Sequence record: LC739536.1
From: Escherichia phage phiWec187
Strand: one strand, 5' to 3'
Length of the DNA stretch: 64,000 nucleotides
A program made the position numbers and the translations under genes. Positions 10,244-56,902 of this stretch are shown here, piece by piece. The notes under the pieces were generated by a model. The model had not been told where the DNA came from. It saw only the letters and a list, made by a program, of their open reading frames with translations, and made no database searches. Within the stretch, counting starts at the first letter, position 1, and the number at the start of each line of letters is the position of its first letter.

Positions 10244-10246
10244 GTC

Positions 10247-11474: not shown

Positions 11475-11490
11475 TAAAAGGAGTTTTTAA

Positions 11491-12501: not shown

Positions 12502-12503
12502 AA

Positions 12504-13241: not shown

Positions 13242-13244
13242 CAG

Positions 13245-17222: not shown

Positions 17223-17230
17223 GGAAAATA

Positions 17231-43495: not shown

Positions 43496-43552
43496 ACTCC
43501 CTCCGTATTATTACTTTAGCATTTTTAGACTAAAAAGTCCAAATGGTTTTAC

Positions 43553-43747: not shown

Positions 43748-44003
43748 CTACAACCTCCTTAATTGCTACAGCACAGTTTTTGCAGATACACTGCCCTTTA
43801 CCTTTAGAAATCTGGATGTAAGGTTCATTTTCATTTTCGCCCTTACGTGAGTCATATATTACAGAATTGAAGCACACAACGCAAATATTTTTTAAGATTG
43901 TATACTTATCAACTTTCTTTTTTGTTTTAAAGTTAACTTCAATAACATCAGCCATCAGTGTAACACTCCCAGTATGTTGCTTTGTGACATAACCATAGAA
44001 CAT
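43725..44003 (-). CDS. hypothetical small Cys-rich protein (possible zinc ribbon)
   Basis: 92 aa with CVVC ... CICKNC. Confidence 0.25.
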   Translation of the reverse strand: MFYGYVTKQHTGSVTLMADVIEVNFKTKKKVDKYTILKNICVVCFNSVIYDSRKGENENEPYIQISKGKGQCICKNCAVAIKEVVDENHWDQ

Positions 44004-44233
44004 TCAACATTATCGTGACTACGTGAAAAACGTTCCCAAACATCTTCATCGACTCGTAAAGCTATACAAGGATAGACGTTATCATTGATCATTTCAATTG
44101 AATAAACATCCACATTGTCTTCGTCTTCGATGAACATCATTGCAAACTGTTCTAAATGTTTCCTAATGTAATGTACATCCTCTTCTGTAAGACCAATAAC
44201 AAGATAACTTGCAACGATAACGCCATCTTTCAT
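43955..44233 (-). CDS. hypothetical small protein
   Basis: 92 aa ORF. Confidence 0.25.
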   Translation of the reverse strand: MKDGVIVASYLVIGLTEEDVHYIRKHLEQFAMMFIEDEDNVDVYSIEMINDNVYPCIALRVDEDVWERFSRSHDNVECSMVMSQSNILGVLH

Positions 44234-44243
44234 CTATATCTCC

Positions 44244-44753
44244 TTAGCGATAGAATTGATGTTCTTTGTAGCGGTACACTAGAACCATATCTTTTTCCCA
44301 GTGTGCTCTTATTGTAGATTTTTTAAAGTATAATGCTCCTTTTGTAATATCTAATGCAATTCGTAATTCTGGAAAATGCGTATCGAGATAAAGTAGACGT
44401 TCTGCTATAGCCTTAGCTTCCTTCCACTTATCACGTTCCATAACGTTGAATGTCTTTGTGTAAGAGAATTGTCCTTTTTGAAACAAAACTTCTTTTATAG
44501 TATCAGGGAAATATGAATCTCTAGCCCTATTCAATACTACATTACCAACAGCAGACATACCGCGCTTTCCTTGATTACGACTTTCTGCATAGATTGCACA
44601 AGCTAATAGATTTTCTTTACTATCACGCTTTGTACACTTGTGAACTACTTTAGCAGTTTTTACGTTTGCAGCTTCGGCTTGCGCCACAACAGGTGTAAAT
44701 GTAAAAGCAGTTAAGGATAGTAACGCAATTGCGACAAAGGTTTTTATTGACAA
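44244..44753 (-). CDS. secreted cell-wall hydrolase (SleB/Hydrolase_2-like), candidate endolysin
   Basis: 169 aa; N-terminal signal peptide with AQA-EA cleavage-like site; LACAIYAESRNQGKRGMSAVGNVVLNR resembles cell-wall hydrolase family 2. Confidence 0.5.
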   Translation of the reverse strand: MSIKTFVAIALLSLTAFTFTPVVAQAEAANVKTAKVVHKCTKRDSKENLLACAIYAESRNQGKRGMSAVGNVVLNRARDSYFPDTIKEVLFQKGQFSYTKTFNVMERDKWKEAKAIAERLLYLDTHFPELRIALDITKGALYFKKSTIRAHWEKDMVLVYRYKEHQFYR

Positions 44754-44846
44754 ACTTGCCTCCTATTTTGTTAAACGAACTTTTATTGTAACACAGAAGA
44801 GGCTGTTTTGCAAGTGGAGGGGGGATTATCCCCCTCTTACACTCTG

Positions 44847-45449
44847 TTAGATATTGTAAACCTTCGTATGAGTTACTACACCATCTTCTACAAAATCAAT
44901 ACGTTCTTGATCCGTAACTAGTGCAGACAACACTTTAAATTTAATTTTTACACGTTCAAAAGCTGGTTGACCATCTTTAAGATAATTATGTTCGGTTGTC
45001 ACTGTCTTGTTTACAAAATCAACTTTCGCTTTACCGTTTTCGCGTAGGTGGAATGTTTTTCCTGCTTTGTACACAATTTCAACATTACCTTCGAGAATAA
45101 TTCCTTCAAAAAGTTCACCCTCTTCTTCATTTTCTTCACTTTTGAACAGACGACGAAACTCTTCCATATCAAGATAAACAACATCTTCAGAATAACTATC
45201 AGTAAGGTATGTCTTACCATCCATTAACCCGAAATATTGCCAGATCGCAGAATAAACATCACTAGTTGATCCAAGGGTTTCTCTGAGTTTAGTTCCACGG
45301 ATTACTTCATAAACTTCAAAATTGAAACCAGACTGCAAAGCATCAAACAGTACATCACTAACTTCTACAGCATAATCTTGATTGTTGTCAACATCCACAA
45401 GAAAATTGCCGCTACGAATAAGTTTTTGACCTTCTAAAGTAATACCCAT
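44847..45449 (-). CDS. hypothetical protein
   Basis: 200 aa acidic ORF downstream of TerD. Confidence 0.3.
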   Translation of the reverse strand: MGITLEGQKLIRSGNFLVDVDNNQDYAVEVSDVLFDALQSGFNFEVYEVIRGTKLRETLGSTSDVYSAIWQYFGLMDGKTYLTDSYSEDVVYLDMEEFRRLFKSEENEEEGELFEGIILEGNVEIVYKAGKTFHLRENGKAKVDFVNKTVTTEHNYLKDGQPAFERVKIKFKVLSALVTDQERIDFVEDGVVTHTKVYNI

Positions 45450-45476
45450 TGTTTTCTCCTCTTTTATTTAAAATAT

Positions 45477-45492
45477 GCGCCCCGAAGGGCGC
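45477..45492 (-). terminator. terminator hairpin after TerD gene
   Basis: stem gcgccc / gggcgc with cgaa loop; minus-strand atatttt follows. Confidence 0.4.
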
Positions 45493-45501
45493 TATGATTT
45501 A

Positions 45502-46098
45502 TTACTCGAACCAATCGTCGCCAGCGCCAAACGCTTTAACTACATCGTAAATGTCAAGCCCAGCTTTACCCACACCATACGCTTTCAGTTTCCATTCGCT
45601 ATCTTCTCGCACCAGGGAGGCAACGTGGCAAATGGTGTTACCTGCAAGTTCTGGAGCCAAGAAGTCAAAGTCCAGCAGTTCAACATTACGTTCATCATCG
45701 AAGATTTTAAGGAAACCTTCGGTAGCGTGACCAAGGCGTTTCTTACCCGTTTCGTCATCAATAGTAATTACGAATGCAATTTCCTGTGCTTCAGCAGAGA
45801 TATTATCCAGTGTAACATCAATCTGCTCCATCTGTCCTACACCATCACGAACATCTTCACCTGCAAAAGTAGAACGTTCAGGATCAAATTTCTGCGCGTA
45901 GCACACCAGGTGACGAGGAGACAACAGTTCCGGCAGACCAGATGCATTGTGTCGGCAAATCAGAGCACTAACATCCAGATCCAGTTTTTCGTTAGATTTC
46001 CAAGAGAATTCCAGACGAATGCGTTTCAGTGCTGGTGCAATCTTTTTCAGAGAAACTTTTTCGCTAGAACCTTTTTTCAGGGAAATTTTCTGAGTCAT
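45502..46098 (-). CDS. terD: TerD-family stress protein
   Basis: 198 aa; ISLKKGSSEKVSLKK, LDLDVSALIC, EIAFVITIDD, SEWKLKAYGVGKAGL align with E. coli TerD blocks as I recall them. Confidence 0.8.
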   Translation of the reverse strand: MTQKISLKKGSSEKVSLKKIAPALKRIRLEFSWKSNEKLDLDVSALICRHNASGLPELLSPRHLVCYAQKFDPERSTFAGEDVRDGVGQMEQIDVTLDNISAEAQEIAFVITIDDETGKKRLGHATEGFLKIFDDERNVELLDFDFLAPELAGNTICHVASLVREDSEWKLKAYGVGKAGLDIYDVVKAFGAGDDWFE

Positions 46099-46170
46099 AA
46101 TTTATTATCTCCTTTGTTGTTAATTTACGTTGTCTATTTTACTAATCTTTTCTACAAAGTCAAGCGTTTT

Positions 46171-46965
46171 TTACGCTTTTGCTCCAAATTTTTTAACCCA
46201 CTCACCAAACTCTTCGGATAGCAGTTTATCGTAAAGTTCTTCGTCAGACAAGGACAAATCTGCAATACCGATAAAATCAACATTATCGTATTCTTTTGCC
46301 AAGTCTTTCAGGAATTTAAAGTTTGCATTACCTACACCAACCATAAACCAGTAAACAGGCGTATTGCGGTGTTTGTTCAGTAAGCTACGTACTGCTGAAG
46401 TATCCATGTTCTCCCCGTCAGTTTGGAAGAAAATCATTGCAGGAGTACGATCAACTTGTGCATCAGTATCTACAACCTGTTCTACAACAGTACGTGTTAC
46501 TTCTACAAGTTCTTTTTTACCAGTTAGTTTAGCAAGGAAACCTTTAGCCGGAACTTCTTCATACTCAACGACTTCGCGTGTAATATTTTTCATAGGTACA
46601 CTACCGAAGTATGTATCATAGATCTCTTGCATTACTGGAGCATAAGCAGTACCACCGTTGATGCAAACATTAGACATGCAAGAGCCGACATAATCATCAT
46701 ACACATCAGCCGTTGCAGGAGGCAGTTCAAAAGAAGAACTATTGAAAGCCCACATGTCAATCTGTGCATTATCATCAAACTTCATACCAAACGGCAGTAG
46801 CTTACCTACAAAATCACTGACAGTGCCATCACGATATAGCTCACACATACTACCCGAAATATCTAAGGCGCTACCGACACGAAGAACAACATCGTTAATC
46901 TTTTTCTTACGCAGAGATACAGTAAGAGTCTCTTGACGTTTTTTAAGACTGATTTTATTGGACAT
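46171..46965 (-). CDS. von Willebrand factor A domain protein (TerY-like)
   Basis: 264 aa; MIDAS-like DISGSM motif after a TerD-like ISLKK N-terminus; adjacent to terD. Confidence 0.55.
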   Translation of the reverse strand: MSNKISLKKRQETLTVSLRKKKINDVVLRVGSALDISGSMCELYRDGTVSDFVGKLLPFGMKFDDNAQIDMWAFNSSSFELPPATADVYDDYVGSCMSNVCINGGTAYAPVMQEIYDTYFGSVPMKNITREVVEYEEVPAKGFLAKLTGKKELVEVTRTVVEQVVDTDAQVDRTPAMIFFQTDGENMDTSAVRSLLNKHRNTPVYWFMVGVGNANFKFLKDLAKEYDNVDFIGIADLSLSDEELYDKLLSEEFGEWVKKFGAKA

Positions 46966-46966
46966 A

Positions 46967-47236
46967 TTATTTCTCCTTTTTGACTGTAATGTTAGTAACT
47001 TCTAAATCCACTTCTACCACTTCTATATCATATAAAATACAGTTAAGTTGACCTCTTTGTGAACCGTTCAGACACATTGCTTGGTTTGTATTAACCTTAA
47101 TAAACACTAAGTTTCTGAACGTATCTAAACCAGCATCTTGATAGGCAAAATAATATACAAATGTATCACCTGCGTCAAGTTCTCCAAAACATTTAGGTTC
47201 ATATGATTCGTCGTCTTTGATATTAAATTTAAGCAC
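46967..47236 (-). CDS. hypothetical protein
   Basis: 89 aa ORF. Confidence 0.25.
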   Translation of the reverse strand: MLKFNIKDDESYEPKCFGELDAGDTFVYYFAYQDAGLDTFRNLVFIKVNTNQAMCLNGSQRGQLNCILYDIEVVEVDLEVTNITVKKEK

Positions 47237-47792
47237 TATCTTCTCCTTTACCTACTTTCAAGCCTAAATAGAAAGCCTCTCTAGTGATTTTTTGCAACTC
47301 GTTTAAAGAGATAGTTACAACTAAATCATCTTCAATTTCTAGCTTTGAGTCTTCTTCTGTCTCAATGCAAGTATTATGCACTTTGTGGTAAGGATTGTCA
47401 ACACGTTTAAATTTATTATTTTCAGTGCTGAAGAAGCAATCTGGATCTTCTTCCACATCACCCCAACCCTGGTTAGGATCTTCTTCAGATCTTTCTGTTG
47501 GGATCTCACCTGTAAAGTGCTCTTCTAATACCAGAGCAATCCCATCTCCAGGATCGGAAGAGAACATCAAATTACAAACTTCTTCCCAAGGCATAGACCA
47601 CTTAAATCTTTTACGATTGCCATGTTTATCTTCTTCGTTAGAGAAAACACTACCATAGCTATCATAATTCCCATACATCTCTTCGACAACCTTACCACCT
47701 TTCAAAAGAAATAGGTAGCAAGGAGAGCCATCGAAAGAGGTAGAAAGAGCAGCATTACCAGACTCTTTGCACAAGAAACTAAAACACCCCAT
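47229..47792 (-). CDS. hypothetical acidic protein
   Basis: 187 aa ORF within the Ter-like cluster. Confidence 0.3.
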   Translation of the reverse strand: MGCFSFLCKESGNAALSTSFDGSPCYLFLLKGGKVVEEMYGNYDSYGSVFSNEEDKHGNRKRFKWSMPWEEVCNLMFSSDPGDGIALVLEEHFTGEIPTERSEEDPNQGWGDVEEDPDCFFSTENNKFKRVDNPYHKVHNTCIETEEDSKLEIEDDLVVTISLNELQKITREAFYLGLKVGKGEDSA

Positions 47793-47992
47793 TATACACC
47801 AGCCTTAAGATCAATTAAAGCCAAAGTTGTTTCAGAGTGTGTTTGCTCGTCTACAGGTGCAGTCATATGATAATACAAAAAATCTTCGGCATCATACCAA
47901 TCTGATTCTTGACCTTGTTTCCAACCATCAATGAAAGCATCTTCCATAATGGTTTGCAATTCTTCACGAGTTAAGTGAATATCTTTACTCAT
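47792..47992 (-). CDS. hypothetical small protein
   Basis: 66 aa ORF. Confidence 0.25.
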   Translation of the reverse strand: MSKDIHLTREELQTIMEDAFIDGWKQGQESDWYDAEDFLYYHMTAPVDEQTHSETTLALIDLKAGV

Positions 47993-48225
47993 TACACATT
48001 CTCCTCTTTTACCAAGTCCATCGTTGAACTATCAAAACCATCTTTAGAAGAATAGGTATAGACAGAACGTAGTTCTCGCAGGACAGTGAATACATTAGGA
48101 TCATCTAACCAAGCATCCTGGAGGAGAACATAACGATCTTCATTGTCATACTGAACAGCAATCATAGAACCAGACAGTTTGTAAATTTTAATATTCATAA
48201 TATATTTCTCCTTAAAGTAGACCAC
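47992..48225 (-). CDS. hypothetical small protein
   Basis: 77 aa ORF. Confidence 0.25.
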   Translation of the reverse strand: MVYFKEKYIMNIKIYKLSGSMIAVQYDNEDRYVLLQDAWLDDPNVFTVLRELRSVYTYSSKDGFDSSTMDLVKEENV

Positions 48226-49315
48226 GTTTAACAGTTTGAATCATACCATCTTCAAGAGATTGCACTTCTTGAATGTAATCAATACGCGCAGCACGGGCTT
48301 CAGTGTTGATTCGGTTAGTTTCTTCCAACATTTTAACTAAGTTTTCTTGATCGCGACGTAATGTTTCAATATCCAATACTTGACGATTAGCAAGTTGTGT
48401 AGCTTCAATTTGGTTTTGTGCAGCCAGATCACTACCCATTGCAATAGCAGCATTAAATTCATTCAGCACATTGTTCTGTGTATCGGCTGCTTTCTTCTGG
48501 CGTAGACTTTCAATATACATAGAAAAGTTTGCAGAGTAAGCAGGGATAACATTATTCACAATATTACGGGCTGATCGCATCAAACTTGCAGATACTTTCT
48601 GCATACTTTGTACACGTGGCCCCATCTGAACACACAGTAAACGCAAGGCTTTCAGGTCTGCAATACGAATTTCAAGCAGATCCATAGTATCACGAGTACG
48701 TTGACGCTCTTCTACTTCATTTTCAGGTAGTGTATTAAGGCGAACTTCTTCTTTTTCATAAGTAGCTGTTAGAAGCTCTATATCCCTGTTTAAGCTAAGA
48801 GCATATTTTGCAATAGCCTCTTCTAAACGTTGCAGATATCGTAAAGAATCTTCTTCTTTTTTCAAGTCTGTTTGTAGTGTCTTTACCAAACCTTCAATAC
48901 GATTATTGATGGTGTCAAATTCACCAAACAAATCTTCTTTCATACCTAATACTTTCTTAACCAGTTTACCTAAGCCTTTAGATTGTTTAATAGAGTTAGG
49001 ATCAAGTTGCTTTGCTTGCTTAATAAGTGCAGTTAAACGTTCACTCATTTCATCCCCCTGAGATGAACGCTGGTGTTTAAGCACTTCAGCATTAAGGTTA
49101 CGAAGAGTAAGTCCTGCATCAGCACCAACTTGTTCAATCTCTTCACGAGACATTGGAGGCAGCATTTGTACAGGTCGTGCAACAGCAGGGGCATATACAG
49201 GGCTTGCATCCATAGCACTTGGAGCAAACAAAGACTTACTTTTTTCTGTTGTTGCCGTGAATACACTCATTTCAGACGGTTTGCTTTTTACGGCACTGAT
49301 AAAAGGACTGGACAT
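48212..49315 (-). CDS. TelA-like toxic anion resistance family protein
   Basis: 367 aa, largely coiled-coil, with size and architecture of TelA/KlaA; context with TerD and TerC; no single diagnostic motif. Confidence 0.45.
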   Translation of the reverse strand: MSSPFISAVKSKPSEMSVFTATTEKSKSLFAPSAMDASPVYAPAVARPVQMLPPMSREEIEQVGADAGLTLRNLNAEVLKHQRSSQGDEMSERLTALIKQAKQLDPNSIKQSKGLGKLVKKVLGMKEDLFGEFDTINNRIEGLVKTLQTDLKKEEDSLRYLQRLEEAIAKYALSLNRDIELLTATYEKEEVRLNTLPENEVEERQRTRDTMDLLEIRIADLKALRLLCVQMGPRVQSMQKVSASLMRSARNIVNNVIPAYSANFSMYIESLRQKKAADTQNNVLNEFNAAIAMGSDLAAQNQIEATQLANRQVLDIETLRRDQENLVKMLEETNRINTEARAARIDYIQEVQSLEDGMIQTVKRGLL

Positions 49316-49383
49316 TCAATTTCCTCCGTATTCTTTAGTAGATGGTGATACCTCTGTACCACCATCATAACACAAATTAAGTA

Positions 49384-50235
49384 TTAAACAAACATATCTA
49401 AATAATTTGTAGTAATAAATGCTCCATCTGCTTCCAGATTAACATAACCAGTAGCATTAGTGGTTAAGAAATCCAGATCGAAGGACTCTTTAACACCCCG
49501 TACCTCAACACGAGAGATATCGAATACAGGTAGTGTAACAGCCTCTTCGTGCAATACCGTACCTTTGTAGGTTGCCTTAATGATAAACTTGATATTACCC
49601 GTTCCAGCATCATACAAAACACTTTCAAACCCTTTGAGAGTATACTTATCACCAGAAGTGAAGTGCAAAGTTGCTTTGTTTACAGTACGTTTTTTACGAG
49701 GAGTTCCTTTCACACGTTTATGATCACTACGTTTTTTGTATTTAGGAATGAATACAAACGATACATTGTGAAGAAAGGTATCAACATCAAGGATTTTAAT
49801 ATCCTCTGTTGCAGCAAATTTTGAAGTTGTTGCATCAAAATGCTTTTCCCGGCGATCATACATAAAGATATCAAACCGATCTTCTAAATCAAACAAATTA
49901 TGTATTTTAATTTCAGAATGCTTGCGCATTGCAGCAACCTTGAACTCTTCAAAACGTGGGTGTTCTACAAGTTCTTCAAGTTTTACACCAAAGACAGTAT
50001 ATTGCTTCGGAGTTTTTTCTGGTGTTGGCATTACAGAAGCATAATCACCGATTGCGCTCTTAAAGCAAAATTGTTCTTGACCTGTATTTTTACCAACGAA
50101 TTTACAGTATTCGTCATCGTGCATACTTTCCTGGGTAGTACCAACAAACTCAAAACCATCTTTATTCTTCTCAAGAATTTCTTGATTAAAGATCCAACCT
50201 TCCAGGCGATATACTTTACCAACTTCTAGTTTCAT
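49384..50235 (-). CDS. hypothetical protein
   Basis: 283 aa ORF between TelA-like and lipoprotein genes. Confidence 0.3.
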   Translation of the reverse strand: MKLEVGKVYRLEGWIFNQEILEKNKDGFEFVGTTQESMHDDEYCKFVGKNTGQEQFCFKSAIGDYASVMPTPEKTPKQYTVFGVKLEELVEHPRFEEFKVAAMRKHSEIKIHNLFDLEDRFDIFMYDRREKHFDATTSKFAATEDIKILDVDTFLHNVSFVFIPKYKKRSDHKRVKGTPRKKRTVNKATLHFTSGDKYTLKGFESVLYDAGTGNIKFIIKATYKGTVLHEEAVTLPVFDISRVEVRGVKESFDLDFLTTNATGYVNLEADGAFITTNYLDMFV

Positions 50236-50270
50236 CTGTTTCTCCTTCTTATTTAATCTGTATTAAATTA

Positions 50271-50861
50271 TTAACGACGACGTGAGCTACTAAAACTACG
50301 TTTCGACGAAGAATAACTTTTCGAAGACTTACTATAAGAGCTAACAGGACTTGAGTAAGACTTACCAGCAGAGTAATCACTATTCACTTTTGTTGTTGAT
50401 GGGCGTGAATACGTTTGTACACTTTGCTGCTTAATTGTGTTTTGTTTAGTGGTTGTATATGTATTTCCTTGTTTATCATAAAAACTATGCTTTTGTGTTG
50501 TATATGCTTTACTATTAGTTGTAGGAGCAGCGTTGTTATTGATAATTGTTGTATTGCTACCGCCATCTCTATAACCACCACCGCCACTATTACCACTCAA
50601 CATATGACCAAGAAGCATACCTGTAGCGAACTCACCTACGCCAGAAGAACCACTGCCGCCTCCTTGAACAACAACTGTTGAAGGTTGTGCAGGTGCTGCT
50701 TGAACAACTTGAGGTGCAGGCTGATTTACATATTGTTCATCTACCATCTGATTTGGTGTTTGTTGGTAACGTTGGTTTTGTACATTTTCAGAATCATCAC
50801 AACCTACCAGCAATGCACTACCTAATACAACTGCAACAATAAAAGATTTAATGTTTTTCAT
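50271..50861 (-). CDS. lipoprotein with Gly-rich and Ser/Tyr-rich low-complexity regions; start re-assigned to ATG at 50861
   Basis: signal peptide with lipobox LLVGC; GAGAGG-type RBS upstream of the second ATG; C-terminal SYSSPVSSYSKSSKSYSSSKRSFSSSRRR. Confidence 0.45.
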   Translation of the reverse strand: MKNIKSFIVAVVLGSALLVGCDDSENVQNQRYQQTPNQMVDEQYVNQPAPQVVQAAPAQPSTVVVQGGGSGSSGVGEFATGMLLGHMLSGNSGGGGYRDGGSNTTIINNNAAPTTNSKAYTTQKHSFYDKQGNTYTTTKQNTIKQQSVQTYSRPSTTKVNSDYSAGKSYSSPVSSYSKSSKSYSSSKRSFSSSRRR

Positions 50862-51093
50862 TTGTAACCCTCTCATTTAAAGTCTCAACACAATTTTTAA
50901 AATCTCTAGAGAAACAATACATCTGTTCTCCGTTCCTGTTGATAGTAATTGTATGGTTATCAATATATGTTGTCAAGATAAAAATCAAACAAAACAACCC
51001 TAGAGCAAAACAAATATTTTCAAACAGAATCCAAAGAACACGTAAAACCACCATCAGATCACCTCAATAAAGCCCCCGAAGGGGCTTAATGAA

Positions 51094-52071
51094 TTAAGCA
51101 ACAGCCTGGTCTTCTTTTTCAGGGAAGATTAAACTTGCAATAACACCCAGCCCAAGAGTACCTAACACAATATACATACTGATCGTCGGATCAATGTGTG
51201 CTGGTAGGAAACTCACTTTTGCGTGCAGAGTTTCTGCAAACGGATGATACATCAGTTTTACACCCACAAATACCAGGACTACGATAACTGCTTTCTCCAG
51301 ATGAACCAAATACTTCAGTGCAACACTAAGAACAAAGAACAGAGCACGTAAACCTAAGATAGCACAGAGCATCGAAGAGAACACCAGCAGAGGTTCTTGT
51401 GTCACTGCAATCACTGCTGGAACAGAGTCTACTGCAAAGATTACGTCAACCATTTCCATTACAAACACACAAACCAGAGCCGGAGTTGCTACACGAACAC
51501 CATTTTTGATTGTGAAGAACTTCTCACCATCCATCTGATCAGATACAGGGAACAGCTTACGAACAATGCGAGTAGCCCAGTGTTTAGAGTAATCAACTTC
51601 TGCATCATTATCTCCAGCGAATACCATTTTAGCCGCACAGAAAAGGATGACCGCACCGAAGAAGATATTAACATACCAGCCCAAACTCAACAAGTAAGTG
51701 CCTACTGCTACAAACACACCTCGGAAGACAATCGCACCTGCAATACCCCAAAGTAGAATCTTGTGCTGCAAGTGTGTGCTTTTAATACCAAAACTTGCGA
51801 ATACTGCCACAAATACTACTAAGTTATCTACAGAAAGAGATTTCTCCAACACATACCCACTTAAGAACAAGCTCGCAAAATCAGCACCGTGTTGGAAGTA
51901 TACAAAACCATAGTAGGCTAATGATACCCCAATCCAGAAAATTGACCAGCCAATTGCAGATTTAAATGAAATTTCTTTGTTTTCTCTGTGTCCAAAGAAA
52001 TCAATACAAATCGACAAGACTAAAATACCCACTAAAACAACCACATCAATAATTGGGAAACCCAGTTGCAT
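51094..52071 (-). CDS. terC: TerC-family integral membrane protein
   Basis: 325 aa polytopic membrane protein; YVLEKSLSVDNLVVFVAVF matches the conserved TerC block. Confidence 0.75.
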   Translation of the reverse strand: MQLGFPIIDVVVLVGILVLSICIDFFGHRENKEISFKSAIGWSIFWIGVSLAYYGFVYFQHGADFASLFLSGYVLEKSLSVDNLVVFVAVFASFGIKSTHLQHKILLWGIAGAIVFRGVFVAVGTYLLSLGWYVNIFFGAVILFCAAKMVFAGDNDAEVDYSKHWATRIVRKLFPVSDQMDGEKFFTIKNGVRVATPALVCVFVMEMVDVIFAVDSVPAVIAVTQEPLLVFSSMLCAILGLRALFFVLSVALKYLVHLEKAVIVVLVFVGVKLMYHPFAETLHAKVSFLPAHIDPTISMYIVLGTLGLGVIASLIFPEKEDQAVA

Positions 52072-52148
52072 TCTTTTCTCCTCTTTAATGCGGAGGACAA
52101 TCCTCCGCTCTATGTCTTATACTATAAACTGTTTTTAAAGAAAGTCAA

Positions 52149-52397
52149 CTAGTTCAGTTCTGTAATTTTAAGTTTATCTTCTTTGTTAATGATAGGGAAA
52201 GCTACAGCATCACCTACATCATCAATAAAGCAAATAGCAAGACCACCTTCCACTTTGCTAACCTGACCATTAAAGGCATGATACGGGGCAGGAACTTCAT
52301 CTCCATCTTCAATGAGAATAGCCTCGTAAACCTTGCCGATAGTACAATCACGGGTGTTTATAAATTTTTCAAGCACTTCAACATTTACTTTACGCAT
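52149..52397 (-). CDS. hypothetical small protein
   Basis: 82 aa ORF. Confidence 0.25.
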   Translation of the reverse strand: MRKVNVEVLEKFINTRDCTIGKVYEAILIEDGDEVPAPYHAFNGQVSKVEGGLAICFIDDVGDAVAFPIINKEDKLKITELN

Positions 52398-52411
52398 ATA
52401 AAGATCCTCTC

Positions 52412-52618
52412 TTATTTGTTAGATTGAAAGATACCACGGAGTACCGCAAGAATGAACGTCACACAGACTACACTCCAAAACGTTACAGGAACATGATGCC
52501 AGTCTAAGCCGATAATGTCAATCATATAATTGTATGCTAAAAGCAGTAGCCAACTAGGGATTAACACAATCAAGAACACAACAATAAAACAACCTAATAC
52601 TGCTAAAACACCTGCCAT
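52412..52618 (-). CDS. small membrane protein
   Basis: 68 aa, two hydrophobic helices. Confidence 0.3.
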   Translation of the reverse strand: MAGVLAVLGCFIVVFLIVLIPSWLLLLAYNYMIDIIGLDWHHVPVTFWSVVCVTFILAVLRGIFQSNK

Positions 52619-52627
52619 ACTTTCTCC

Positions 52628-53344
52628 TTATTTCAGTTTGTAAACAATTACATTTAAACCTTTGTTTACTAGAGTTTCTTCGATCATAAGTTTTACAATA
52701 TTCCAAGAACCTCCAGCCAAACCACAACCAAGCATTGGTAAACCTACAATTTTACCGCCTGAAGATACAACATCGTCTCCCATACTATCTAGCGCATTGT
52801 AGATAGCTTCATAATTCAGGTCACGCTTACCTTCCTCACGACGACTATAACCATATTGTCCATATAAATTATAAATTGTCAAATTGTTTTCTGTATATTT
52901 GGTAAACGTACCTAATTTTTTATAATCACCACGTTTAGTGGCACAATCTGCTTTAAACGCACCAGGCCACTTGCTTTTAATTTTTGGTGCAATACCACTA
53001 CCCATAGTGCAAAAACAGTTACAGCAGTGTGCTATAGCGTCTATATCGCCTCTCTCGGCTGCTGCTAAAAGATCACCGTATACCTCAATGATACCTGCTG
53101 GATAACTTGTTACAATTTCATCTTCCCAGTACATTTTCTCTACACCACCGATCAGTGCAAAGTTTTGTGTAATGCGATCATCAATATAGTTAAGCCCTGA
53201 AACATACACAGCGTATTCATCCTGTGCTGTAATACCTTGCACACGAATTCTTAAGACACCATCTTTATCTGTTGCTACACGCCCAAAATCTTTTTCTGTA
53301 ATATTGGTGATAGGATCTCCGAAAGTCATTACTTTATTAGACAT
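52628..53344 (-). CDS. macro-domain protein (ADP-ribose binding/processing); start re-assigned to ATG at 53344
   Basis: IAHCCNCFCTMGSGIAPKI and C-terminal LGCGLAGG resemble macro-domain blocks; ORF track start lies inside the upstream gene. Confidence 0.5.
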   Translation of the reverse strand: MSNKVMTFGDPITNITEKDFGRVATDKDGVLRIRVQGITAQDEYAVYVSGLNYIDDRITQNFALIGGVEKMYWEDEIVTSYPAGIIEVYGDLLAAAERGDIDAIAHCCNCFCTMGSGIAPKIKSKWPGAFKADCATKRGDYKKLGTFTKYTENNLTIYNLYGQYGYSRREEGKRDLNYEAIYNALDSMGDDVVSSGGKIVGLPMLGCGLAGGSWNIVKLMIEETLVNKGLNVIVYKLK

Positions 53345-54194
53345 AATAATCCCCTTTAACATTAGATTTGTTGATAATGTTGCTTTCAAAAAATTGACGT
53401 AGGAAATCAAAGTTCTCTTTGTATTTTTCAATGTTATTGTAACCTTCTGCAAGGCAACCAAAGAACAGTTGTTCTACATAATACAAAGGAAGTTGTGAAA
53501 GTGCAATTTTAAAATCAACTTCGCTTTGACTCATTAGATACTTAATAGGACGAACCAAACATTTAGCATCAGTTTCTTGCTTAATCATTTTAATAAAAGC
53601 TGCCAGATTATTGATATAGTTGAAGTTAAGTGCAGCTTCGGTATTGGCTTCTGTACCTTCATACTTTGCAAAGTACAGGAAAAACGTATCGTTTTCAACA
53701 CCTTCTTTGTCTAAAATTTCAATAAGTTTTTCTTCGTGTGTTCCTGTAATATTAACATCATCAATGAAAATCAGAGTTTTATTACCCCAGAAATCACGAT
53801 TGATAGAGAAAGTGTCACCATCGATCAAAGCCTTACGATCTTCTTTGCTAAGAAATCCATAATCATTGATATAACTCACTTTACGATGAACGATATCCCA
53901 CTCCACTGCTTTACCTCCTTTGATAGAGATTAGGTAGTTGAGGTGATCTACAAAATGCTCAGATAACACTGTAGCTGCATTTTTCACATAATTATATGGA
54001 GATGGAATAACAACAAAACTTTCATTTACTAGTCGTTCTTCATATTTAGAAAAGAAACTTTCAGCTAGAATGCGTCCCATTCTTTTTGCTGCCTGGTTAC
54101 TGCCAAACTTTAGTTTGGAATAATCTGCAATGTTAAATTTTGCTTCCTTCAGGTTAGTAAAAGTATTAGCAAAATGTTGAATTTGATTACGCAT
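53337..54194 (-). CDS. phosphoribosyltransferase-domain protein (type I PRTase fold)
   Basis: 285 aa; TLIFIDDVNITGTHEE matches the PRPP-binding motif (hydrophobic x4, DD, xxTG) of type I PRTases. Confidence 0.55.
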   Translation of the reverse strand: MRNQIQHFANTFTNLKEAKFNIADYSKLKFGSNQAAKRMGRILAESFFSKYEERLVNESFVVIPSPYNYVKNAATVLSEHFVDHLNYLISIKGGKAVEWDIVHRKVSYINDYGFLSKEDRKALIDGDTFSINRDFWGNKTLIFIDDVNITGTHEEKLIEILDKEGVENDTFFLYFAKYEGTEANTEAALNFNYINNLAAFIKMIKQETDAKCLVRPIKYLMSQSEVDFKIALSQLPLYYVEQLFFGCLAEGYNNIEKYKENFDFLRQFFESNIINKSNVKGDYYV

Positions 54195-54843
54195 TAATAA
54201 GTTCCTCTTTTTTAAGTTTAGCCAACAAGTCTTCTGGATTAATAATATGACAGAACTTCATCCCTATGTCAACAGCTTTTCCATCATAAATCAAACTATC
54301 TCCAACGTGTAAAATCTCCTCTGGTGCGAGATCAAACGTTACCATTTCATCAAAAGAGAGTTTAAAAAACCTAGGATCTGGTTTACACAAGCAAAACTCA
54401 TCAGAAAAATGCATAAAGTCAAATGGTAATTTTGTTAAGCCAGAATATACAGCTAAGAAACTACCTGGTACAAAATTAGTATTGCTCTTAATACTCAAAG
54501 AATAGGTTGAACTTAGCTCTTCCAACTTCTTGCAAAGTTCAGGGTTCAATATTGGAGGATGTTTTATAAACATTGCTAAACAGTCTCTTTTTAACCCATC
54601 CACTTTATCAAGATCAATGTTCAAACGAGTAGAAAGTGTTTCCCAAGCATTCCTAGACGTTCCACAAATGCCTTTTTCTGCTTTTAAATCCAGGAGAGTT
54701 TTTACCTCTTTATATACGGTAGCTGCTTCTGCCTCAGAACAAGAGGCATACTCGGCAATAACCTTGTTGCGTTCTTCTGCATACAAAGGATTAGCAGTAA
54801 TAAGAGTATTCCATACATCAAAAGAAATATGCTTAACAGTCAT
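54187..54843 (-). CDS. HAD-superfamily hydrolase/phosphatase; start re-assigned to ATG at 54843
   Basis: motif I FDVWNTL (DxYGT-type variant) and motif IV VGDSLIYDG; GGAGG RBS 7 nt upstream of ATG 54843. Confidence 0.55.
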   Translation of the reverse strand: MTVKHISFDVWNTLITANPLYAEERNKVIAEYASCSEAEAATVYKEVKTLLDLKAEKGICGTSRNAWETLSTRLNIDLDKVDGLKRDCLAMFIKHPPILNPELCKKLEELSSTYSLSIKSNTNFVPGSFLAVYSGLTKLPFDFMHFSDEFCLCKPDPRFFKLSFDEMVTFDLAPEEILHVGDSLIYDGKAVDIGMKFCHIINPEDLLAKLKKEELINA

Positions 54844-55012
54844 TTTTAATCCTCCGTCCAAAAGAATATCATCTGCTTAATTTTATTGATCTCTTGATGT
54901 AGTAACTTTCCAGCATGTGATTGATCTTTAATATTGACAGCAAGAATTTCAAGCTCCGTTAGTTTTTCCTGTATAGCTTTATATTCATCATCTGTAAGCA
55001 TTTTCTTCCCCT

Positions 55013-55216
55013 TTAGAATGGTAATCTTTGTATGTCACTTATCCCCACACCAAGAAGTCTAGCAATATCCTTATCTAAAAGCAACTCTTTTTGTTCTAAA
55101 ATGTTAATCAGATCCCCTAATACTTCTTTAATGTCACGATCATTTTTAACAACGTGACCACCTGCTGTATCAACTTTATCTTTAAAAACAAAGTAATGAT
55201 CCATAATACCCTCCAT
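55013..55216 (-). CDS. hypothetical small protein
   Basis: 67 aa ORF. Confidence 0.25.
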   Translation of the reverse strand: MEGIMDHYFVFKDKVDTAGGHVVKNDRDIKEVLGDLINILEQKELLLDKDIARLLGVGISDIQRLPF

Positions 55217-55250
55217 ATAAATAAAGGAGGCTTTCGCCTCCTTTTATCAC

Positions 55251-56411
55251 TTAGTAAGAACGACCACCAAACACATACTCTGTGTAGTTTTTACGTTCTT
55301 TGTTTTTAATAACAACTTCAATGTTGTTGCCTTTATCATCGGTGAACACAAAGTGATAACCGTCACCACCCATTGTACGGATGTGTTTTTCATCATACGT
55401 CAGCAAGATACGGTCTACACCCCAGTAGTAGTCACCTTCTTCGTCTTTATCTTCTACGGTAACGACTCCTTCCATTTCAGGAAGATGCTCTTCTCCTGAC
55501 TTATGATCTACAGCTACAACATAACGATTACCGCTAAACAAACCTTGTGCTGTCATACCGTCAATATCTGTATCTGACGAAACATCTCCTGTACGATCTA
55601 CACCGTTAACTTTCAGAAGTTTAACTTCTTTTGCAGCATAGCGGTGTTCAGTAATACTGATACCCATTAATGCAAGTGCATCAGAGAATTTGTCATTAGG
55701 GTAACGGTTAAGTTCTTCTACTAATGACTGAACAATATCAAAGTTCAAGTCCACGGAAAGATTATAAAGCGTTTCAAAATCTGGTAAAAAGGCTTTGTTC
55801 TCCAGATTTTTAGCCAGATAGTCATCCATAGTAGCTTTAGGTAGTTTCTTATAGCTAAAGCTGTAGAAAATACGGCTAGGACGATTACGCAAAAATTCTG
55901 ATACATAACCATCGTTTTTAGTCAATACAAACAGCTTGTCGTAGCCACCTACACCATCCAGCAGGGTAAGCAAGCCATCCTGTGCATCTTTTTCAGCATA
56001 CAGTTTATCAAATTCATCGATCATAATCATCACAGGTTGTGTGATTTTAGACATAAAATTGATAAAGCCTTCGCCATTAAAAGCACTACCGATAGAAATA
56101 GTAGGAATACCCATTTCACGAAGAGCAGAAGACAGCATTTTAGCTTGCAAAGTTTTACCGCTACCCTTCGTACCCTCAAGGAGAACACCTGTGTTTTTAC
56201 CTTTGCGGCTAAGGAACGTCTTGATAATACGTTCTGATTTATCATCAGTATCACCGTATGTTACTGAAGGGACTTCCATATCGTTTTTAGGATACAGGAA
56301 GAACTCACCACTTTGAGTAACACCTACACCAAAAGTTCCTGCTGGAATTTCTTCAATATCTGTACCAGACTTCTGACGCAGGAAGATTTGATTGCCGAAT
56401 ACTGTAAACAT
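55251..56411 (-). CDS. AAA-type ATPase of unknown function
   Basis: 386 aa; Walker A GTKGSGKT and Walker B VMIMIDEFD; GAGGAG RBS. Confidence 0.55.
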   Translation of the reverse strand: MFTVFGNQIFLRQKSGTDIEEIPAGTFGVGVTQSGEFFLYPKNDMEVPSVTYGDTDDKSERIIKTFLSRKGKNTGVLLEGTKGSGKTLQAKMLSSALREMGIPTISIGSAFNGEGFINFMSKITQPVMIMIDEFDKLYAEKDAQDGLLTLLDGVGGYDKLFVLTKNDGYVSEFLRNRPSRIFYSFSYKKLPKATMDDYLAKNLENKAFLPDFETLYNLSVDLNFDIVQSLVEELNRYPNDKFSDALALMGISITEHRYAAKEVKLLKVNGVDRTGDVSSDTDIDGMTAQGLFSGNRYVVAVDHKSGEEHLPEMEGVVTVEDKDEEGDYYWGVDRILLTYDEKHIRTMGGDGYHFVFTDDKGNNIEVVIKNKERKNYTEYVFGGRSY

Positions 56412-56431
56412 AGTTTTCTCCTCTATTTAAT

Positions 56432-56902
56432 TTAGTCAGATTCCCAAATGTTGTCTTTCTTAATCCACATTCGTTGATTATCTGAACCTCTATAACGTTT
56501 CGTTGTTGGTTGATTCATATCATACTTACCATCTATCACTATGTCAACCAGTTTTTTAATTTTTTCTGGAATTTCCTCAAAAAGATATCCTGTATATAAG
56601 ACAATATCTTTTTTGTTTCCAAAACAATCTCTTACCTTCTCAAGAACATACTCTACAGTGTCAATGTTCTCTTTGTCAAGAGGTTCACCACCTAAAACTG
56701 TTAATCCTTTAATGAAAGGTCGAGATAAATCTTTCAAGATAAGATCTAATGTTTCAGTAGTGAACTCTTGTCCGTGGTTATACGACCAGGCTTTCTGGTT
56801 AAAGCAGCCACGGCAACCGTGGCTACAACCGCTCACCCACAAAGAGCATCTTACACCGTCACCGTTGAGCATGTCAACAGGTTCATATCCGGCGTAATTC
56901 AA
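56432..56902 (-). CDS. nrdG: anaerobic ribonucleotide reductase activating protein (radical SAM)
   Basis: 156 aa; CSHGCRGC radical-SAM cluster motif; start overlaps the nrdD stop. Confidence 0.8.
   Translation of the reverse strand: MNYAGYEPVDMLNGDGVRCSLWVSGCSHGCRGCFNQKAWSYNHGQEFTTETLDLILKDLSRPFIKGLTVLGGEPLDKENIDTVEYVLEKVRDCFGNKKDIVLYTGYLFEEIPEKIKKLVDIVIDGKYDMNQPTTKRYRGSDNQRMWIKKDNIWESD

What the first reader, a model, noticed from the sequence alone, without database searches (positions are those of the whole stretch)
45502..54861. Phage-borne Ter-type stress cluster contiguous with PRTase, HAD and macro-domain genes
On one strand and in one orientation lie TerD (45502..46098), a vWA protein with a MIDAS motif (46171..46965), a TelA-like coiled-coil protein (48212..49315), a lipoprotein, TerC (51094..52071), a macro-domain protein, a type I phosphoribosyltransferase and a HAD hydrolase, with seven unassigned ORFs interspersed. 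In bacteria, Ter genes are known to associate with PRTase and HAD enzymes proposed to make a nucleoside-like metabolite. Finding the whole set in a lytic phage, next to its nucleotide-metabolism genes, suggests the phage carries a metabolite-producing or signal-degrading module that may serve host takeover or counter-defence. The unassigned ORFs may be new components.
Basis: partly seen in the sequence, partly recalled or inferred. Interest (0 to 1): 0.85.

Follow-up and report, generated by a model that had tools for sequence, protein, structure and literature searches.

The report
Known Ter stress cluster in coliphage
A phi92-like E. coli phage carries a real, conserved block of 'tellurite-resistance-type' membrane-stress genes next to a two-enzyme nucleotide module. 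This block is already annotated in dozens of related phages and has been described for other phages, and its function is still untested.

Summary
On the minus strand lie TerD, a TerF-type vWA protein, TelA, a lipoprotein, an Alx-type TerC, a macro-domain protein, a PRTase_3 phosphoribosyltransferase and a HAD hydrolase. All are supported by profile searches.

The window is a phi92-like myovirus (Justusliebigvirus, 99% identical to phage Antha). The block is full-length in at least 54 phage records and syntenic in Phapecoctavirus. Ter genes in phages, including Ter plus PRTase plus HAD sets, were described by Iyer et al. 2021, so the finding is not new. No experimental function was found in the literature.

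New here:
- The HAD gene directly precedes PRTase_3 in all 30 phage and plasmid loci first examined.
- The pair abuts TerD, vWA, TelA or TerC-family genes, in shuffled order, in 8 of about 17 other phage lineages and in two Bacteroidota loci. It stands alone in 9 lineages and on rhizobial replicons.
- The macro domain is a generic phage gene (2972 records) and is not Ter-specific.
- None of the unassigned ORFs recurs with Ter genes outside this subfamily.

Most likely function, by inference: an inner-membrane Ter complex, tuned by a ribosylated metabolite, that keeps the infected cell's envelope stable and excludes rival phages. The counter-defence reading is unsupported.

The parts
55223..55244 (-). 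Terminator-like hairpin (AAAGGAGGC-GAAA-GCCTCCTTT followed by ATTTAT) after the AAA-ATPase gene. It marks the upstream boundary of the block.
55013..55216 (-). 67-aa ORF of unknown function, the first gene of the block. It is conserved in phAPEC8 at 49% identity.
54846..55001 (-). 51-aa ORF of unknown function, restricted to this genus.
54187..54861 (-). HAD-IA hydrolase, with a likely true start at 54843. Motif I is FDVWNTL: the nucleophile Asp is kept but Asp+2 is replaced by Trp. Its 3' end overlaps the PRTase start by 8 nt.
53337..54194 (-). Type I phosphoribosyltransferase of family PRTase_3 (PF15610). It has a PRPP loop and an extra C-terminal helical domain.
52628..53362 (-). Macro-domain protein of the SCO6735/BT1257 subclass, with a genus-specific N-terminal extension of about 90 aa. 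It is a generic phage gene and probably a separate function.
52412..52618 (-). 68-aa protein with two predicted membrane spans, conserved across Stephanstirmvirinae (60% identity in phAPEC8).
52149..52397 (-). 82-aa ORF of unknown function. It is absent from phAPEC8.
52090..52148 (-). Sigma-70-like promoter (TTGACT-16-TATAGT, 52148..52121) followed by an 8-bp 5'-UTR hairpin (52108..52090) upstream of terC. No riboswitch is present.
   Evidence: a promoter is annotated at the same place in phAPEC8
51094..52071 (-). TerC-family integral membrane protein of the Alx subfamily (TIGR03718, 322.8 bits against a cut-off of 246.4).
50848..51054 (-). 68-aa single-span membrane protein with the conserved motifs FENICFA and GEQxYCF. 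It is found only in Stephanstirmvirinae.
50271..50876 (-). Lipoprotein with lipobox LLVG|C followed by Asp-Asp, which is an inner-membrane retention signal in E. coli. The rest is rich in Q, G, S and N.
49384..50235 (-). 283-aa ORF of unknown function. Full-length homologues occur only in Justusliebigvirus. The C-terminal third is 39% identical to a phAPEC8 ORF.
48212..49315 (-). TelA (toxic anion resistance family) helical protein.
47992..48225 (-). 77-aa ORF of unknown function. It is absent from phAPEC8.
47792..47992 (-). 66-aa ORF of unknown function, conserved in Stephanstirmvirinae.
47229..47792 (-). 187-aa ORF whose N-terminal domain of about 135 aa belongs to a widespread, very conserved phage family with no Pfam model and no PDB fold match. 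It is probably not a Ter component.
46967..47236 (-). 89-aa ORF of unknown function, conserved in Stephanstirmvirinae and duplicated in phAPEC8.
46171..46965 (-). vWA protein of the TerF C-terminal type (PF10138) with an intact MIDAS motif.
   Evidence: and direct reading of the sequence
46136..46163 (-). Sigma-70-like promoter (TTGACT-16-TAAAAT) in the gap upstream of terD.
45502..46098 (-). TerD-domain protein. The Ca2+-binding motif is partly degenerate: GEDVRDGVGQME against GDNRTGEGDGDDE in Klebsiella TerD (PDB 2KXT).
45477..45492 (-). Terminator-like hairpin (GCGCCC-TTCG-GGGCGC followed by ATATTTT). It marks the downstream boundary of the block.

Best explanation
The block is the Stephanstirmvirinae version of a phage-borne Ter system.

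Shown:
- It combines a TerC/Alx-type inner-membrane protein, TelA, a TerF-type vWA protein, one TerD protein and an invariant HAD-PRTase_3 enzyme pair.
- Small membrane proteins and a lipoprotein are interleaved with these genes.
- Two terminator-like hairpins bracket the block, and sigma-70-like promoters lie in front of terC and terD.

Inferred mechanism:
- The genes are transcribed from host-type promoters. This follows from sigma-70 consensus matches only; the timing of expression was not examined.
- TerC inserts in the inner membrane. TelA, vWA (through its MIDAS metal site) and TerD assemble on its cytoplasmic face.
- The complex adjusts divalent-cation flux (Mn2+/Ca2+) and stabilises the envelope. 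This keeps the infected cell energised until programmed lysis.
- The complex also blocks entry or pore formation by superinfecting phages and colicin-like agents. Phage inhibition and resistance to pore-forming colicins are the two classical non-tellurite phenotypes of plasmid ter genes.
- PRTase_3 joins an unknown base to PRPP. The HAD enzyme processes the product to a nucleoside-like molecule that acts as a ligand or regulator of the Ter proteins.
- The macro-domain protein is a separate, generic phage ADP-ribosyl hydrolase that happens to lie in the same early-gene region.
For: Identity of the parts.

Block boundaries and promoters. phAPEC8 has an annotated host-type promoter at the same place before terC.

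Long residence in phages:
- The block is syntenic in Phapecoctavirus, with the Ter proteins at 67-81% identity and PRTase at 65%.
- The phage TerD scores only 58 bits against Klebsiella TerD, so this is not a recent capture from a host.

Functional linkage of HAD-PRTase_3 with Ter genes:
- HAD sits directly upstream of PRTase_3 in 30 of 30 loci.
- Ter genes lie within 10 kb in 8 of about 17 non-Stephanstirmvirinae phage lineages.
- In several cases they sit within 21-87 bp, and the gene order differs between lineages.
- Four of these lineages carry DUF475, a TerC-superfamily protein, in place of TerC.
- The same linkage appears in two Bacteroidota loci, one of them beside a TerY-PP2C-kinase triad.

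Membrane focus: the block also encodes a lipoprotein with Cys-Asp-Asp and small proteins with one and two membrane spans.

Literature:
- TerC-family proteins export Mn2+ and metalate secreted enzymes (PMC10550928, PMC10197570, PMC13274385).
- Plasmid ter genes confer phage inhibition and resistance to pore-forming colicins (Whelan et al. 1995, as cited in PMC8386662 and PMC9796965).
- Superinfection exclusion was proposed for phage Ter systems by Iyer et al. 2021 (PMC7824862).
Against: - There is no experimental datum for any phage Ter gene. PMC9796965 states that their function in infection is unknown.
- The HAD-PRTase_3 pair occurs without Ter genes within 10 kb in 9 phage lineages and in 12 rhizobial loci. 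Its product therefore cannot act only through Ter proteins.
- The TerD Ca2+ motif is partly degenerate.
- In every homologue the HAD enzyme lacks the Asp+2 general acid/base of standard HAD phosphatases. The 'nucleotide to nucleoside' step is therefore an assumption.
- The substrate of the PRTase cannot be read from the model. Structural matches cover the PRTase core only, at TM-scores of 0.3-0.45.
- The promoter and terminator calls are consensus matches, and their counts do not exceed shuffled controls.
Confidence: 0.4

Rival explanations
1. The adjacency is incidental. The region holds three independent units: a Ter membrane set, a HAD-PRTase_3 nucleotide-metabolism pair that belongs with the neighbouring nrdD/nrdG genes, and a generic macro-domain gene. 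They simply share the phage's early or auxiliary gene region.
For: - HAD-PRTase_3 stands alone in XaC1, Rhizobium phages, CcrColossus, CcrPW, four metagenomic lineages and rhizobial replicons.
- In Brevundimonas phage Kabachok, TelA and PRTase lie 37 kb apart.
- The macro domain occurs in 2972 phage records.
- The pair lies next to nrdG in Phapecoctavirus, with two small ORFs between. In this window a small-ORF pair and the AAA-ATPase gene separate it from nrdG.
Against: - Direct abutment of the pair with TerD, vWA or TelA recurs in at least five lineages whose PRTases are only 42-51% identical to the window protein, and the gene order differs each time.
- The same linkage is seen in two Bacteroidota loci.
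- Two randomly placed genes in a 150-350 kb genome would fall within 10 kb of each other only about 10% of the time.
- The block is bracketed by terminator-like hairpins.
Confidence: 0.25
2. PRTase, HAD and macro together make or destroy a nucleotide or ADP-ribose-derived molecule in order to disarm NAD-dependent or nucleotide-signalling host immunity. The Ter proteins play an accessory role.
For: - The macro domain resembles the DarG antitoxin macro domain (NCBIfam 6e-13, PADLOC 1e-13) and the ADP-ribosyl hydrolases SCO6735 and TARG1.
- In phiPsa347 the macro gene sits between the Ter genes and Nampt/Prs-type NAD-salvage genes.
- Nampt also lies within about 8 kb of Ter genes in two metagenomic loci.
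Against: - The macro gene never abuts HAD-PRTase_3 outside this subfamily. Where it was detected in the other pair-bearing loci it lies 7-8 kb away.
- PRTase_3 and HAD match no PADLOC model.
- The pair's conserved partners are TerD, vWA, TelA and TerC-family proteins, which are membrane-associated rather than signal-degrading.
- The macro domain lacks the TARG1 Lys/Asp dyad, having Q and A at those positions.
Confidence: 0.12
3. The block manages metals. The Alx-type TerC exports Mn2+ or hands metal to exported phage or host proteins during infection, for example to envelope enzymes. TerD, vWA and TelA act as metal-binding accessories.
For: - TerC passes the cut-off of the TerC/Alx metal-homeostasis subfamily.
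- TerC-family proteins export Mn2+ and metalate Sec-exported enzymes (PMC10550928, PMC10197570, PMC13274385).
- TerD and the vWA MIDAS site are metal-binding modules.
- A signal-peptide-bearing cell-wall hydrolase is encoded about 750 nt downstream of terD, with one ORF between them.
- A P-type cation ATPase follows the pair in Bacteroidota locus L047.
Against: - There is no Mn2+ riboswitch upstream of terC.
- This reading gives HAD-PRTase_3 no role.
- SleB-type hydrolases are not known to need metal (my own knowledge).
- The TerD Ca2+ motif is degenerate.
Confidence: 0.1
4. The genes are a resistance moron. They give the host resistance to tellurite or other xenobiotics, which benefits the phage indirectly.
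For: The genes carry tellurite-resistance names in public annotation. Iyer et al. mention xenobiotic resistance during pseudolysogeny (PMC7824862).
Against: - The phage is virulent.
- TerB, the additional TerD-domain paralogues TerA, TerZ and TerE, and the rest of the terZABCDEF set are absent.
- PMC9796965 judges tellurite resistance from such partial sets to be unlikely.
Confidence: 0.03

Closest known systems
Phage-borne Ter systems described by Iyer, Anantharaman, Krishnan, Burroughs and Aravind 2021 (Viruses 13:63, PMC7824862). The fullest example is the Ter set with PRTases and HAD in Acinetobacter phage vB_AbaM_ME3; abbreviated TerD/TerC/TerF/TelA operons occur in Caulobacter jumbo phages.
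   Same: The gene content is the same: TerD, TerC, TerF-type vWA, TelA, PRTase and HAD in a virulent tailed phage. That paper explicitly extends the observation to 'certain other related smaller tailed phages'.
   Different: This is a 145-150 kb phi92-like coliphage, not a jumbo phage. The enzyme pair is specifically PRTase_3 with a 'DVWNTL' HAD. I could not confirm that ME3 uses the same PRTase family. I also found that Caulobacter and Brevundimonas jumbo phages carry the HAD-PRTase_3 pair far from their Ter genes.
The same block in phi92 (gp172-gp178 and neighbours), phAPEC8 and other Stephanstirmvirinae, as deposited in GenBank.
   Same: Nucleotide identity is 98-99% in Justusliebigvirus, and the block is syntenic in Phapecoctavirus. 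Existing annotations already read 'tellurite resistance protein', 'TerC', 'putative orotate phosphoribosyltransferase', 'putative macrodomain protein' and 'HAD-like'.
   Different: Nothing of substance differs. Public annotation is patchy and sometimes wrong, for example 'HNH endonuclease' for TerD and vWA and 'Zot-like toxin' for the PRTase in phage Eryne.
Bacterial Ter stress-response systems: terZABCDEF of IncHI2 plasmids and E. coli O157, the B. subtilis yceCDEFGH operon, and the Ter-linked biosynthetic and TerY-P modules of Anantharaman et al. 2012.
   Same: The core hub of TerC, TerD, TelA and vWA is shared, as is the link to a PRTase and a HAD enzyme. I verified that link here in two Bacteroidota loci.
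   Different: The phage set has only one TerD paralogue. It has no TerB, no ATP-grasp enzyme or C-C lyase, and no TerY-PP2C-kinase triad. TerD and vWA are separate genes in the order vWA then TerD, unlike fused TerF. Lineage-specific small membrane proteins are added. I could not read the 2012 paper, so its content is cited from memory and through PMC7824862.
SCO6735/BT1257-type macrodomains, relatives of TARG1 and DarG, and the T4 Tk.4 phage macro family.
   Same: Sequence similarity is 3e-15 to SCO6735 and BT1257, with shared GQ(H/Y)G and GCGLAGG(S/T)W motifs. Homologues are found in 2972 phage records, including the Tk.4 locus of a T4-like Aeromonas phage.
   Different: It carries a genus-specific N-terminal extension of about 90 aa of unknown function, present in only 56 records. 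It lacks the TARG1 Lys84/Asp125 dyad.

Membership tests
Ter stress-response system (TerC-TerD-TelA-vWA hub) | TerD-domain protein | tested here: met
   PF02342 at 5e-28. PDB 2KXT TerD at 9e-15 over residues 5-180.
Ter stress-response system (TerC-TerD-TelA-vWA hub) | TerC-family integral membrane protein | tested here: met
   PF03741 at 1e-38. TIGR03718 TerC/Alx at 322.8 bits against a cut-off of 246.4.
Ter stress-response system (TerC-TerD-TelA-vWA hub) | TelA protein | tested here: met
   PF05816 at 5e-34, covering 318 of 332 profile positions.
Ter stress-response system (TerC-TerD-TelA-vWA hub) | vWA protein of the TerF/TerY type with a MIDAS motif | tested here: met
   PF10138 at 1e-38. 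The DISGS...T...D motif is visible in the sequence.
Ter stress-response system (full terZABCDEF type) | TerB and multiple TerD paralogues (TerA/Z/E) | tested here: not met
   Pfam scans of every ORF in 44244-56411 gave a single TerD and no TerB. The 200-aa neighbour is unrelated to TerD.
Ter-linked biosynthetic module (Anantharaman et al. 2012) | PRTase and HAD enzymes adjacent to Ter genes | tested here: met
   PF15610 at 1e-41 and HAD. The linkage recurs in 8 other phage lineages and 2 Bacteroidota loci.
Ter-linked biosynthetic module (Anantharaman et al. 2012) | ATP-grasp and C-C lyase enzymes | tested here: not met
   No such Pfam hit in any ORF of the block.
Ter stress-response system | Confers tellurite, phage or colicin resistance | not testable with these tools
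   This needs expression or deletion experiments.
TerY-P anti-phage triad | TerY vWA together with a PP2C phosphatase and a Ser/Thr kinase | tested here: not met
   The window has no PP2C or kinase domain and no PADLOC hit. The triad is present in Bacteroidota locus L047.
Type I phosphoribosyltransferase | PRTase fold with a PRPP-binding loop | tested here: met
   D145, D146, T150, G151, H153 and E154 of the PRPP loop are invariant and T152 is nearly invariant in 28 homologues. The AF2 model has pLDDT 91.4 and matches HGPRT, ComF and PyrR (Foldseek 3e-6, probability 1.0) over the core only.
HAD phosphatase | Motifs I-IV, including the Asp+2 general acid/base | tested here: inconclusive
   The nucleophile Asp, the motif II Ser/Thr (SNTN), the motif III Lys and the motif IV GD...D are conserved. 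Asp+2 is Trp (Tyr in one sequence) in all 27 sequences, as in PDB 2om6.
TARG1/DarG-type ADP-ribosyl hydrolase macrodomain | Macro fold plus the catalytic Lys (TARG1 K84 / DarG K80) and Asp | tested here: not met
   The macro domain is present. The aligned positions are Q and A, as in SCO6735 and BT1257. The residue numbering of TARG1 is from memory.
yybP-ykoY Mn2+ riboswitch-controlled Alx/TerC gene | Riboswitch in the 5' leader | tested here: not met
   No Rfam match at E of 1 or lower in 43500-57500. The leader is only 49 nt and holds a simple hairpin.

The most novel reading that the evidence does not exclude
The invariant HAD-PRTase_3 pair may synthesise a dedicated nucleoside-like messenger. 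TerD and vWA proteins would sense it and gate a TerC/DUF475 membrane protein. That would make this a self-contained small-molecule signalling circuit, maintained by many unrelated virulent phages to protect the infected cell's membrane from rival phages, pore-formers or membrane-targeting abortive-infection effectors. The unusual Trp-for-Asp HAD and the extra helical domain of the PRTase would then mark a new enzymatic chemistry.
Probability: 0.2. Interest if true: 0.7.

Novelty: already known. Interest (0 to 1): 0.3.

Why it matters
Ter genes are among the most widespread bacterial stress genes that still lack a mechanism. Their classical phenotypes, phage inhibition and colicin resistance, have been unexplained for 30 years.

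Virulent coliphages that grow on E. coli K-12 (for example PaulScherrer/Bas60) carry a compact Ter plus HAD-PRTase_3 set. That offers a genetically simple place to test what the system does and what the metabolite is.

The finding is not a discovery in itself. Its value is as a tractable model, together with the refined parts list:
- an invariant HAD-PRTase_3 pair;
- a recurrent but non-obligatory link between that pair and Ter genes;
- exclusion of the macro domain and the small ORFs from the conserved core.

Tried and rejected
1. A Mn2+ riboswitch upstream of the Alx-type terC. Rfam gave no match at E of 1 or lower, and the leader is a 49-nt hairpin.
2. The 200-aa ORF 44847-45449 as a second TerD. 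BLASTP gave E=0.64. It lies past the terminator-like hairpin and is absent from phAPEC8.
3. Defence or anti-defence models. PADLOC matched only the macro domain, to DarG, plus a weak AAA hit.
5. The 283-aa ORF. Full-length homologues exist only within the genus, and hhalign against TelA was negative.
6. The lipoprotein as a cross-lineage component. Iterated HMM hits in XaC1 and L024 share the lipobox-Cys-Asp-Asp and Q/G/S-rich architecture. Pairwise BLASTP with composition correction is not significant, with E between 2 and 6.
7. A conserved protein of about 320 aa that follows TerD in L010, L020 and L026. It has no Pfam hit, only weak hhalign similarity to TelA (probability 23%) and no counterpart in the window.
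8. PRTase substrate from structure. Only the generic PRTase core matched.
9. The Anantharaman et al. 2012 paper could not be read, and the afdb50 fold library was unavailable.
10. IncHI2-type plasmid ter loci. tblastn with the phage PRTase found only rhizobial and Hymenobacter plasmids, so the enterobacterial Ter-linked PRTases belong to other families.

Full report
**What is there**

Every ORF from 44847 to 56411 is on the minus strand.

| Coordinates | Assignment | Pfam | E-value |
|---|---|---|---|
| 45502-46098 | TerD | PF02342 | 5e-28 |
| 46171-46965 | vWA-TerF-like | PF10138 | 1e-38 |
| 48212-49315 | TelA | PF05816 | 5e-34 |
| 51094-52071 | TerC | PF03741 | 1e-38 |
| 52628-53461 | Macro | PF01661 | 3e-7 |
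| 53337-54194 | PRTase_3 | PF15610 | 1e-41 |
| 54187-54861 | HAD | PF00702 | 1.7e-5 |

- The vWA protein has the MIDAS motif DISGS.
- The HAD hit is marginal in Pfam. It is confirmed by NCBIfam HAD-IA models, by PDB 2om6 and by conserved motifs.
- 50271-50876 has a lipobox (LLVG|C) followed by Asp-Asp.
- NCBIfam places TerC in the TerC/Alx metal-homeostasis subfamily, at 322.8 bits against a cut-off of 246.4.
- Eight ORFs in the block have no Pfam family above threshold. PHROGs places them in families of unknown function.

**Where it comes from**

The 10.1-kb region is 99.1% identical to Escherichia phage Antha and 98-99% identical to dozens of phi92-like myoviruses (Justusliebigvirus, Stephanstirmvirinae). 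At least 54 records hold the whole block.

In Phapecoctavirus (phAPEC8, ukendt) the block is syntenic.

| Protein | Identity in phAPEC8 |
|---|---|
| TerD | 81% |
| TelA | 79% |
| TerC | 72% |
| vWA | 67% |
| PRTase | 65% |
| HAD | 50% |
| Macro core | 49% |

Five small ORFs and the lipoprotein are also conserved there. The 200-aa ORF 44847-45449, the 77-aa and 82-aa ORFs and the AAA ATPase are absent.

Existing GenBank annotations already use names such as tellurite resistance protein, TerC, putative orotate phosphoribosyltransferase, macrodomain and HAD-like. Some records mislabel the genes.

**What is already published**

- Iyer et al. [quoted passage not shown] - Genome papers on phiKp34 (PMC8386662) and phiPsa374 (PMC9796965) list terC, terD, terF and telA clusters in virulent phages. 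The latter states that their function in infection is unknown.
- RAST had already called phi92 gp172, gp173 and gp178 as Ter proteins (PMC4690881).
- I found no experimental study.

**Anatomy of the block**

- Terminator-like hairpins lie right after the AAA gene (55244..55223) and right after terD (45492..45477). They bracket exactly the stretch from the 67-aa ORF through HAD, PRTase, macro, terC, telA and vWA to terD.
- Sigma-70-like promoters sit in the only sizeable intergenic gaps, before terC (TTGACT-16-TATAGT) and before terD (TTGACT-16-TAAAAT). The first matches a promoter annotated in phAPEC8.
- These are consensus matches, and their counts do not exceed shuffled controls.
- The Alx-type terC has no Mn2+ riboswitch.

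**Is it one module?**

I collected PRTase_3 loci from phage records, IMG/VR, metagenomes and genomes. I then searched their ORFs with HMMs iterated from the window proteins.

1. HAD lies immediately upstream of PRTase_3, often overlapping it, in 30 of the 30 phage and plasmid loci of the first set. In the 15 genome loci found afterwards the two genes are again adjacent.
2. Outside Stephanstirmvirinae there are about 17 distinct phage or plasmid lineages. Eight have Ter genes within 10 kb, often directly abutting and in different orders.
   - L020 and L026: TelA-vWA...HAD-PRTase-TerD.
   - L024: TerC-vWA-TerD-TerD-TelA-HAD-PRTase.
   - L028: TelA-HAD-PRTase-vWA-DUF475-TerD.
   - L029 and L009: TerC...TerD...vWA-HAD-PRTase.
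   - Four of the eight use DUF475, a TerC-superfamily protein.
3. Nine lineages have the pair with no detectable Ter gene within 10 kb. They include XaC1, Rhizobium phages, CcrColossus, CcrPW and the rhizobial plasmid pRL10.
4. Among cellular genomes, 12 of the 15 loci are rhizobial and carry the pair alone.
5. Two Bacteroidota MAG loci embed the pair in genuine ter neighbourhoods.
   - L047: TerD x3, TerY-type vWA x3, PP2C, kinase, HAD, PRTase_3, P-type ATPase.
   - L048: TerD x2, OmpA, HAD, PRTase_3, OmpA/PD40, TerC.

So the pair is a separable two-gene unit with a recurrent, non-random but non-obligatory association with Ter proteins.

**The macro domain**

- It has homologues in 2972 phage records, including T4-like and Felix O1-like phages. 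Only 56 records cover the N-terminal extension of about 90 aa.
- It belongs to the SCO6735/BT1257 subclass, with GCGLAGG and GQYG motifs. It lacks the TARG1 Lys/Asp dyad.
- It shows DarG-like similarity in NCBIfam and PADLOC.
- Outside this subfamily it does not sit next to the pair. In the other loci where it was detected it lies 3-8 kb from the pair or from TelA.
- In phiPsa347 it lies between the Ter genes and Nampt/Prs-type genes.
- I treat it as an independent ADP-ribosyl hydrolase.

**The unassigned ORFs**

- None recurs with Ter genes outside Stephanstirmvirinae.
- The 187-aa ORF carries a strikingly conserved N-terminal domain, with 32 invariant columns across 36 homologues. The family has at least 296 protein clusters and no Pfam model. 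It occurs in marine phage contigs among replication genes without Ter genes. A confident model (pLDDT 85.7) has no PDB or BFVD fold relative.
- The 283-aa ORF is genus-restricted in full length.
- The lipoprotein's apparent counterparts in other lineages do not survive composition-corrected comparison.

**The enzymes**

- The PRTase_3 model (pLDDT 91.4) has a type I PRTase core similar to HGPRT, ComF and PyrR, plus an unmatched C-terminal helical domain. The PRPP loop is conserved in all 28 homologues, with one of its residues nearly invariant. The substrate cannot be inferred.
- The HAD enzyme keeps the nucleophile Asp and motifs II-IV. It has Trp at Asp+2 in essentially all homologues, as does the uncharacterised archaeal protein 2om6. 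Its assignment as a plain nucleotide phosphatase is therefore an assumption.
- The TerD Ca2+-binding motif is partly degenerate.

**Most likely function (inference)**

The block probably encodes an inner-membrane Ter complex of TerC with peripheral TelA, vWA and TerD. Host-type promoters would drive it. It would stabilise ion balance and the envelope of the infected cell, and exclude rival phages or pore-formers. A ribosylated metabolite from HAD-PRTase_3 would modulate it.

This fits three lines of evidence:
- the classical Phi and PacB phenotypes of plasmid ter genes (cited in PMC8386662 and PMC9796965);
- the known metal-export and metalation roles of TerC proteins (PMC10550928, PMC10197570, PMC13274385);
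- the proposal of Iyer et al. 2021.

Confidence is about 0.4. The rivals, with their weights, are:
- incidental adjacency of independent units, 0.25;
- nucleotide or ADP-ribose counter-defence, 0.12;
- metal management, 0.1;
- a xenobiotic-resistance moron, 0.03.

**Verdict**

The block is a common, already annotated feature of a known phage subfamily, and the concept has been published for other phages, so novelty is low. The unresolved function keeps it of moderate interest as a tractable model.

Noticed in passing
[not shown]
   Followed up: partly
window 56899-59467 (-): nrdD is split at Pfam model position 263 into two ORFs, 58601-59467 and 56899-57870. Between them lie an I-HmuI-like HNH endonuclease ORF (57993-58502) and a sub-threshold group I intron match (RF00028, 57891-57998, 39.2 bits, E=3e-8). 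The relative Eryne has an uninterrupted nrdD. This is probably a mobile group I intron with its homing endonuclease.
   Followed up: partly
window 44244-44753 (-): The SleB-like cell-wall hydrolase (PF07486, 6.5e-20), annotated as endolysin in relatives, begins with a signal-peptide-like segment (MSIKTFVAIALLSLTAFTFTPVVAQAEA). That suggests Sec-dependent export or a signal-anchor-release type endolysin.
   Followed up: no
window 54187-54861 (-) and homologues in L001-L033: The HAD partner of PRTase_3 has Trp (Tyr in one sequence) in place of the Asp+2 general acid/base in all 27 homologues (motif FDVWNTL). The uncharacterised P. horikoshii protein PDB 2om6 has the same motif. The chemistry may differ from that of standard HAD phosphatases.
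   Followed up: partly
L047 1-14633; L048 1-14398: Two Bacteroidota MAG contigs place HAD-PRTase_3 inside bacterial ter neighbourhoods. L047 has TerD x3, TerY-type vWA x3, PP2C, a Ser/Thr kinase (the TerY-P triad), HAD, PRTase_3 and a P-type cation ATPase. L048 has TerD x2, OmpA, HAD, PRTase_3, OmpA/PD40 and TerC.
   Followed up: partly
L015 (phiPsa347) 4665-15363: In this Otagovirus the genes TerD, vWA and TelA, a macro domain, Nampt and a Prs-like kinase lie in one co-oriented stretch. Nampt also sits within about 8 kb of Ter genes in L028 and L029. NAD-salvage genes and Ter genes therefore tend to share the same region in several phage groups.
   Followed up: no
L010 1514-2557; L020 11436-12389; L026 11530-12468: A conserved protein of 312-347 aa with no Pfam family directly follows TerD in three unrelated metagenomic phage Ter loci. 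It has a proline-rich N-terminus and a helical C-terminus ending in 'vTIPAf'. hhalign similarity to TelA is weak. It may be an unrecognised Ter-associated component, and it has no counterpart in the window.
   Followed up: partly
GenBank MG065639, MG065645, MG065656, MG065689: Records named 'Campylobacter phage' A150, A145, C3 and A110a are 98.3% identical to this coliphage block over 10 kb. The host labels are probably wrong.
   Followed up: no
L014 (Escherichia phage Eryne PQ529420) 9702-18395: Automated annotation calls TerD and the vWA protein 'HNH endonuclease' and the PRTase 'Zot-like toxin'. These labels conflict with the profile evidence and could mislead safety screens of therapeutic phages.
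   Followed up: yes
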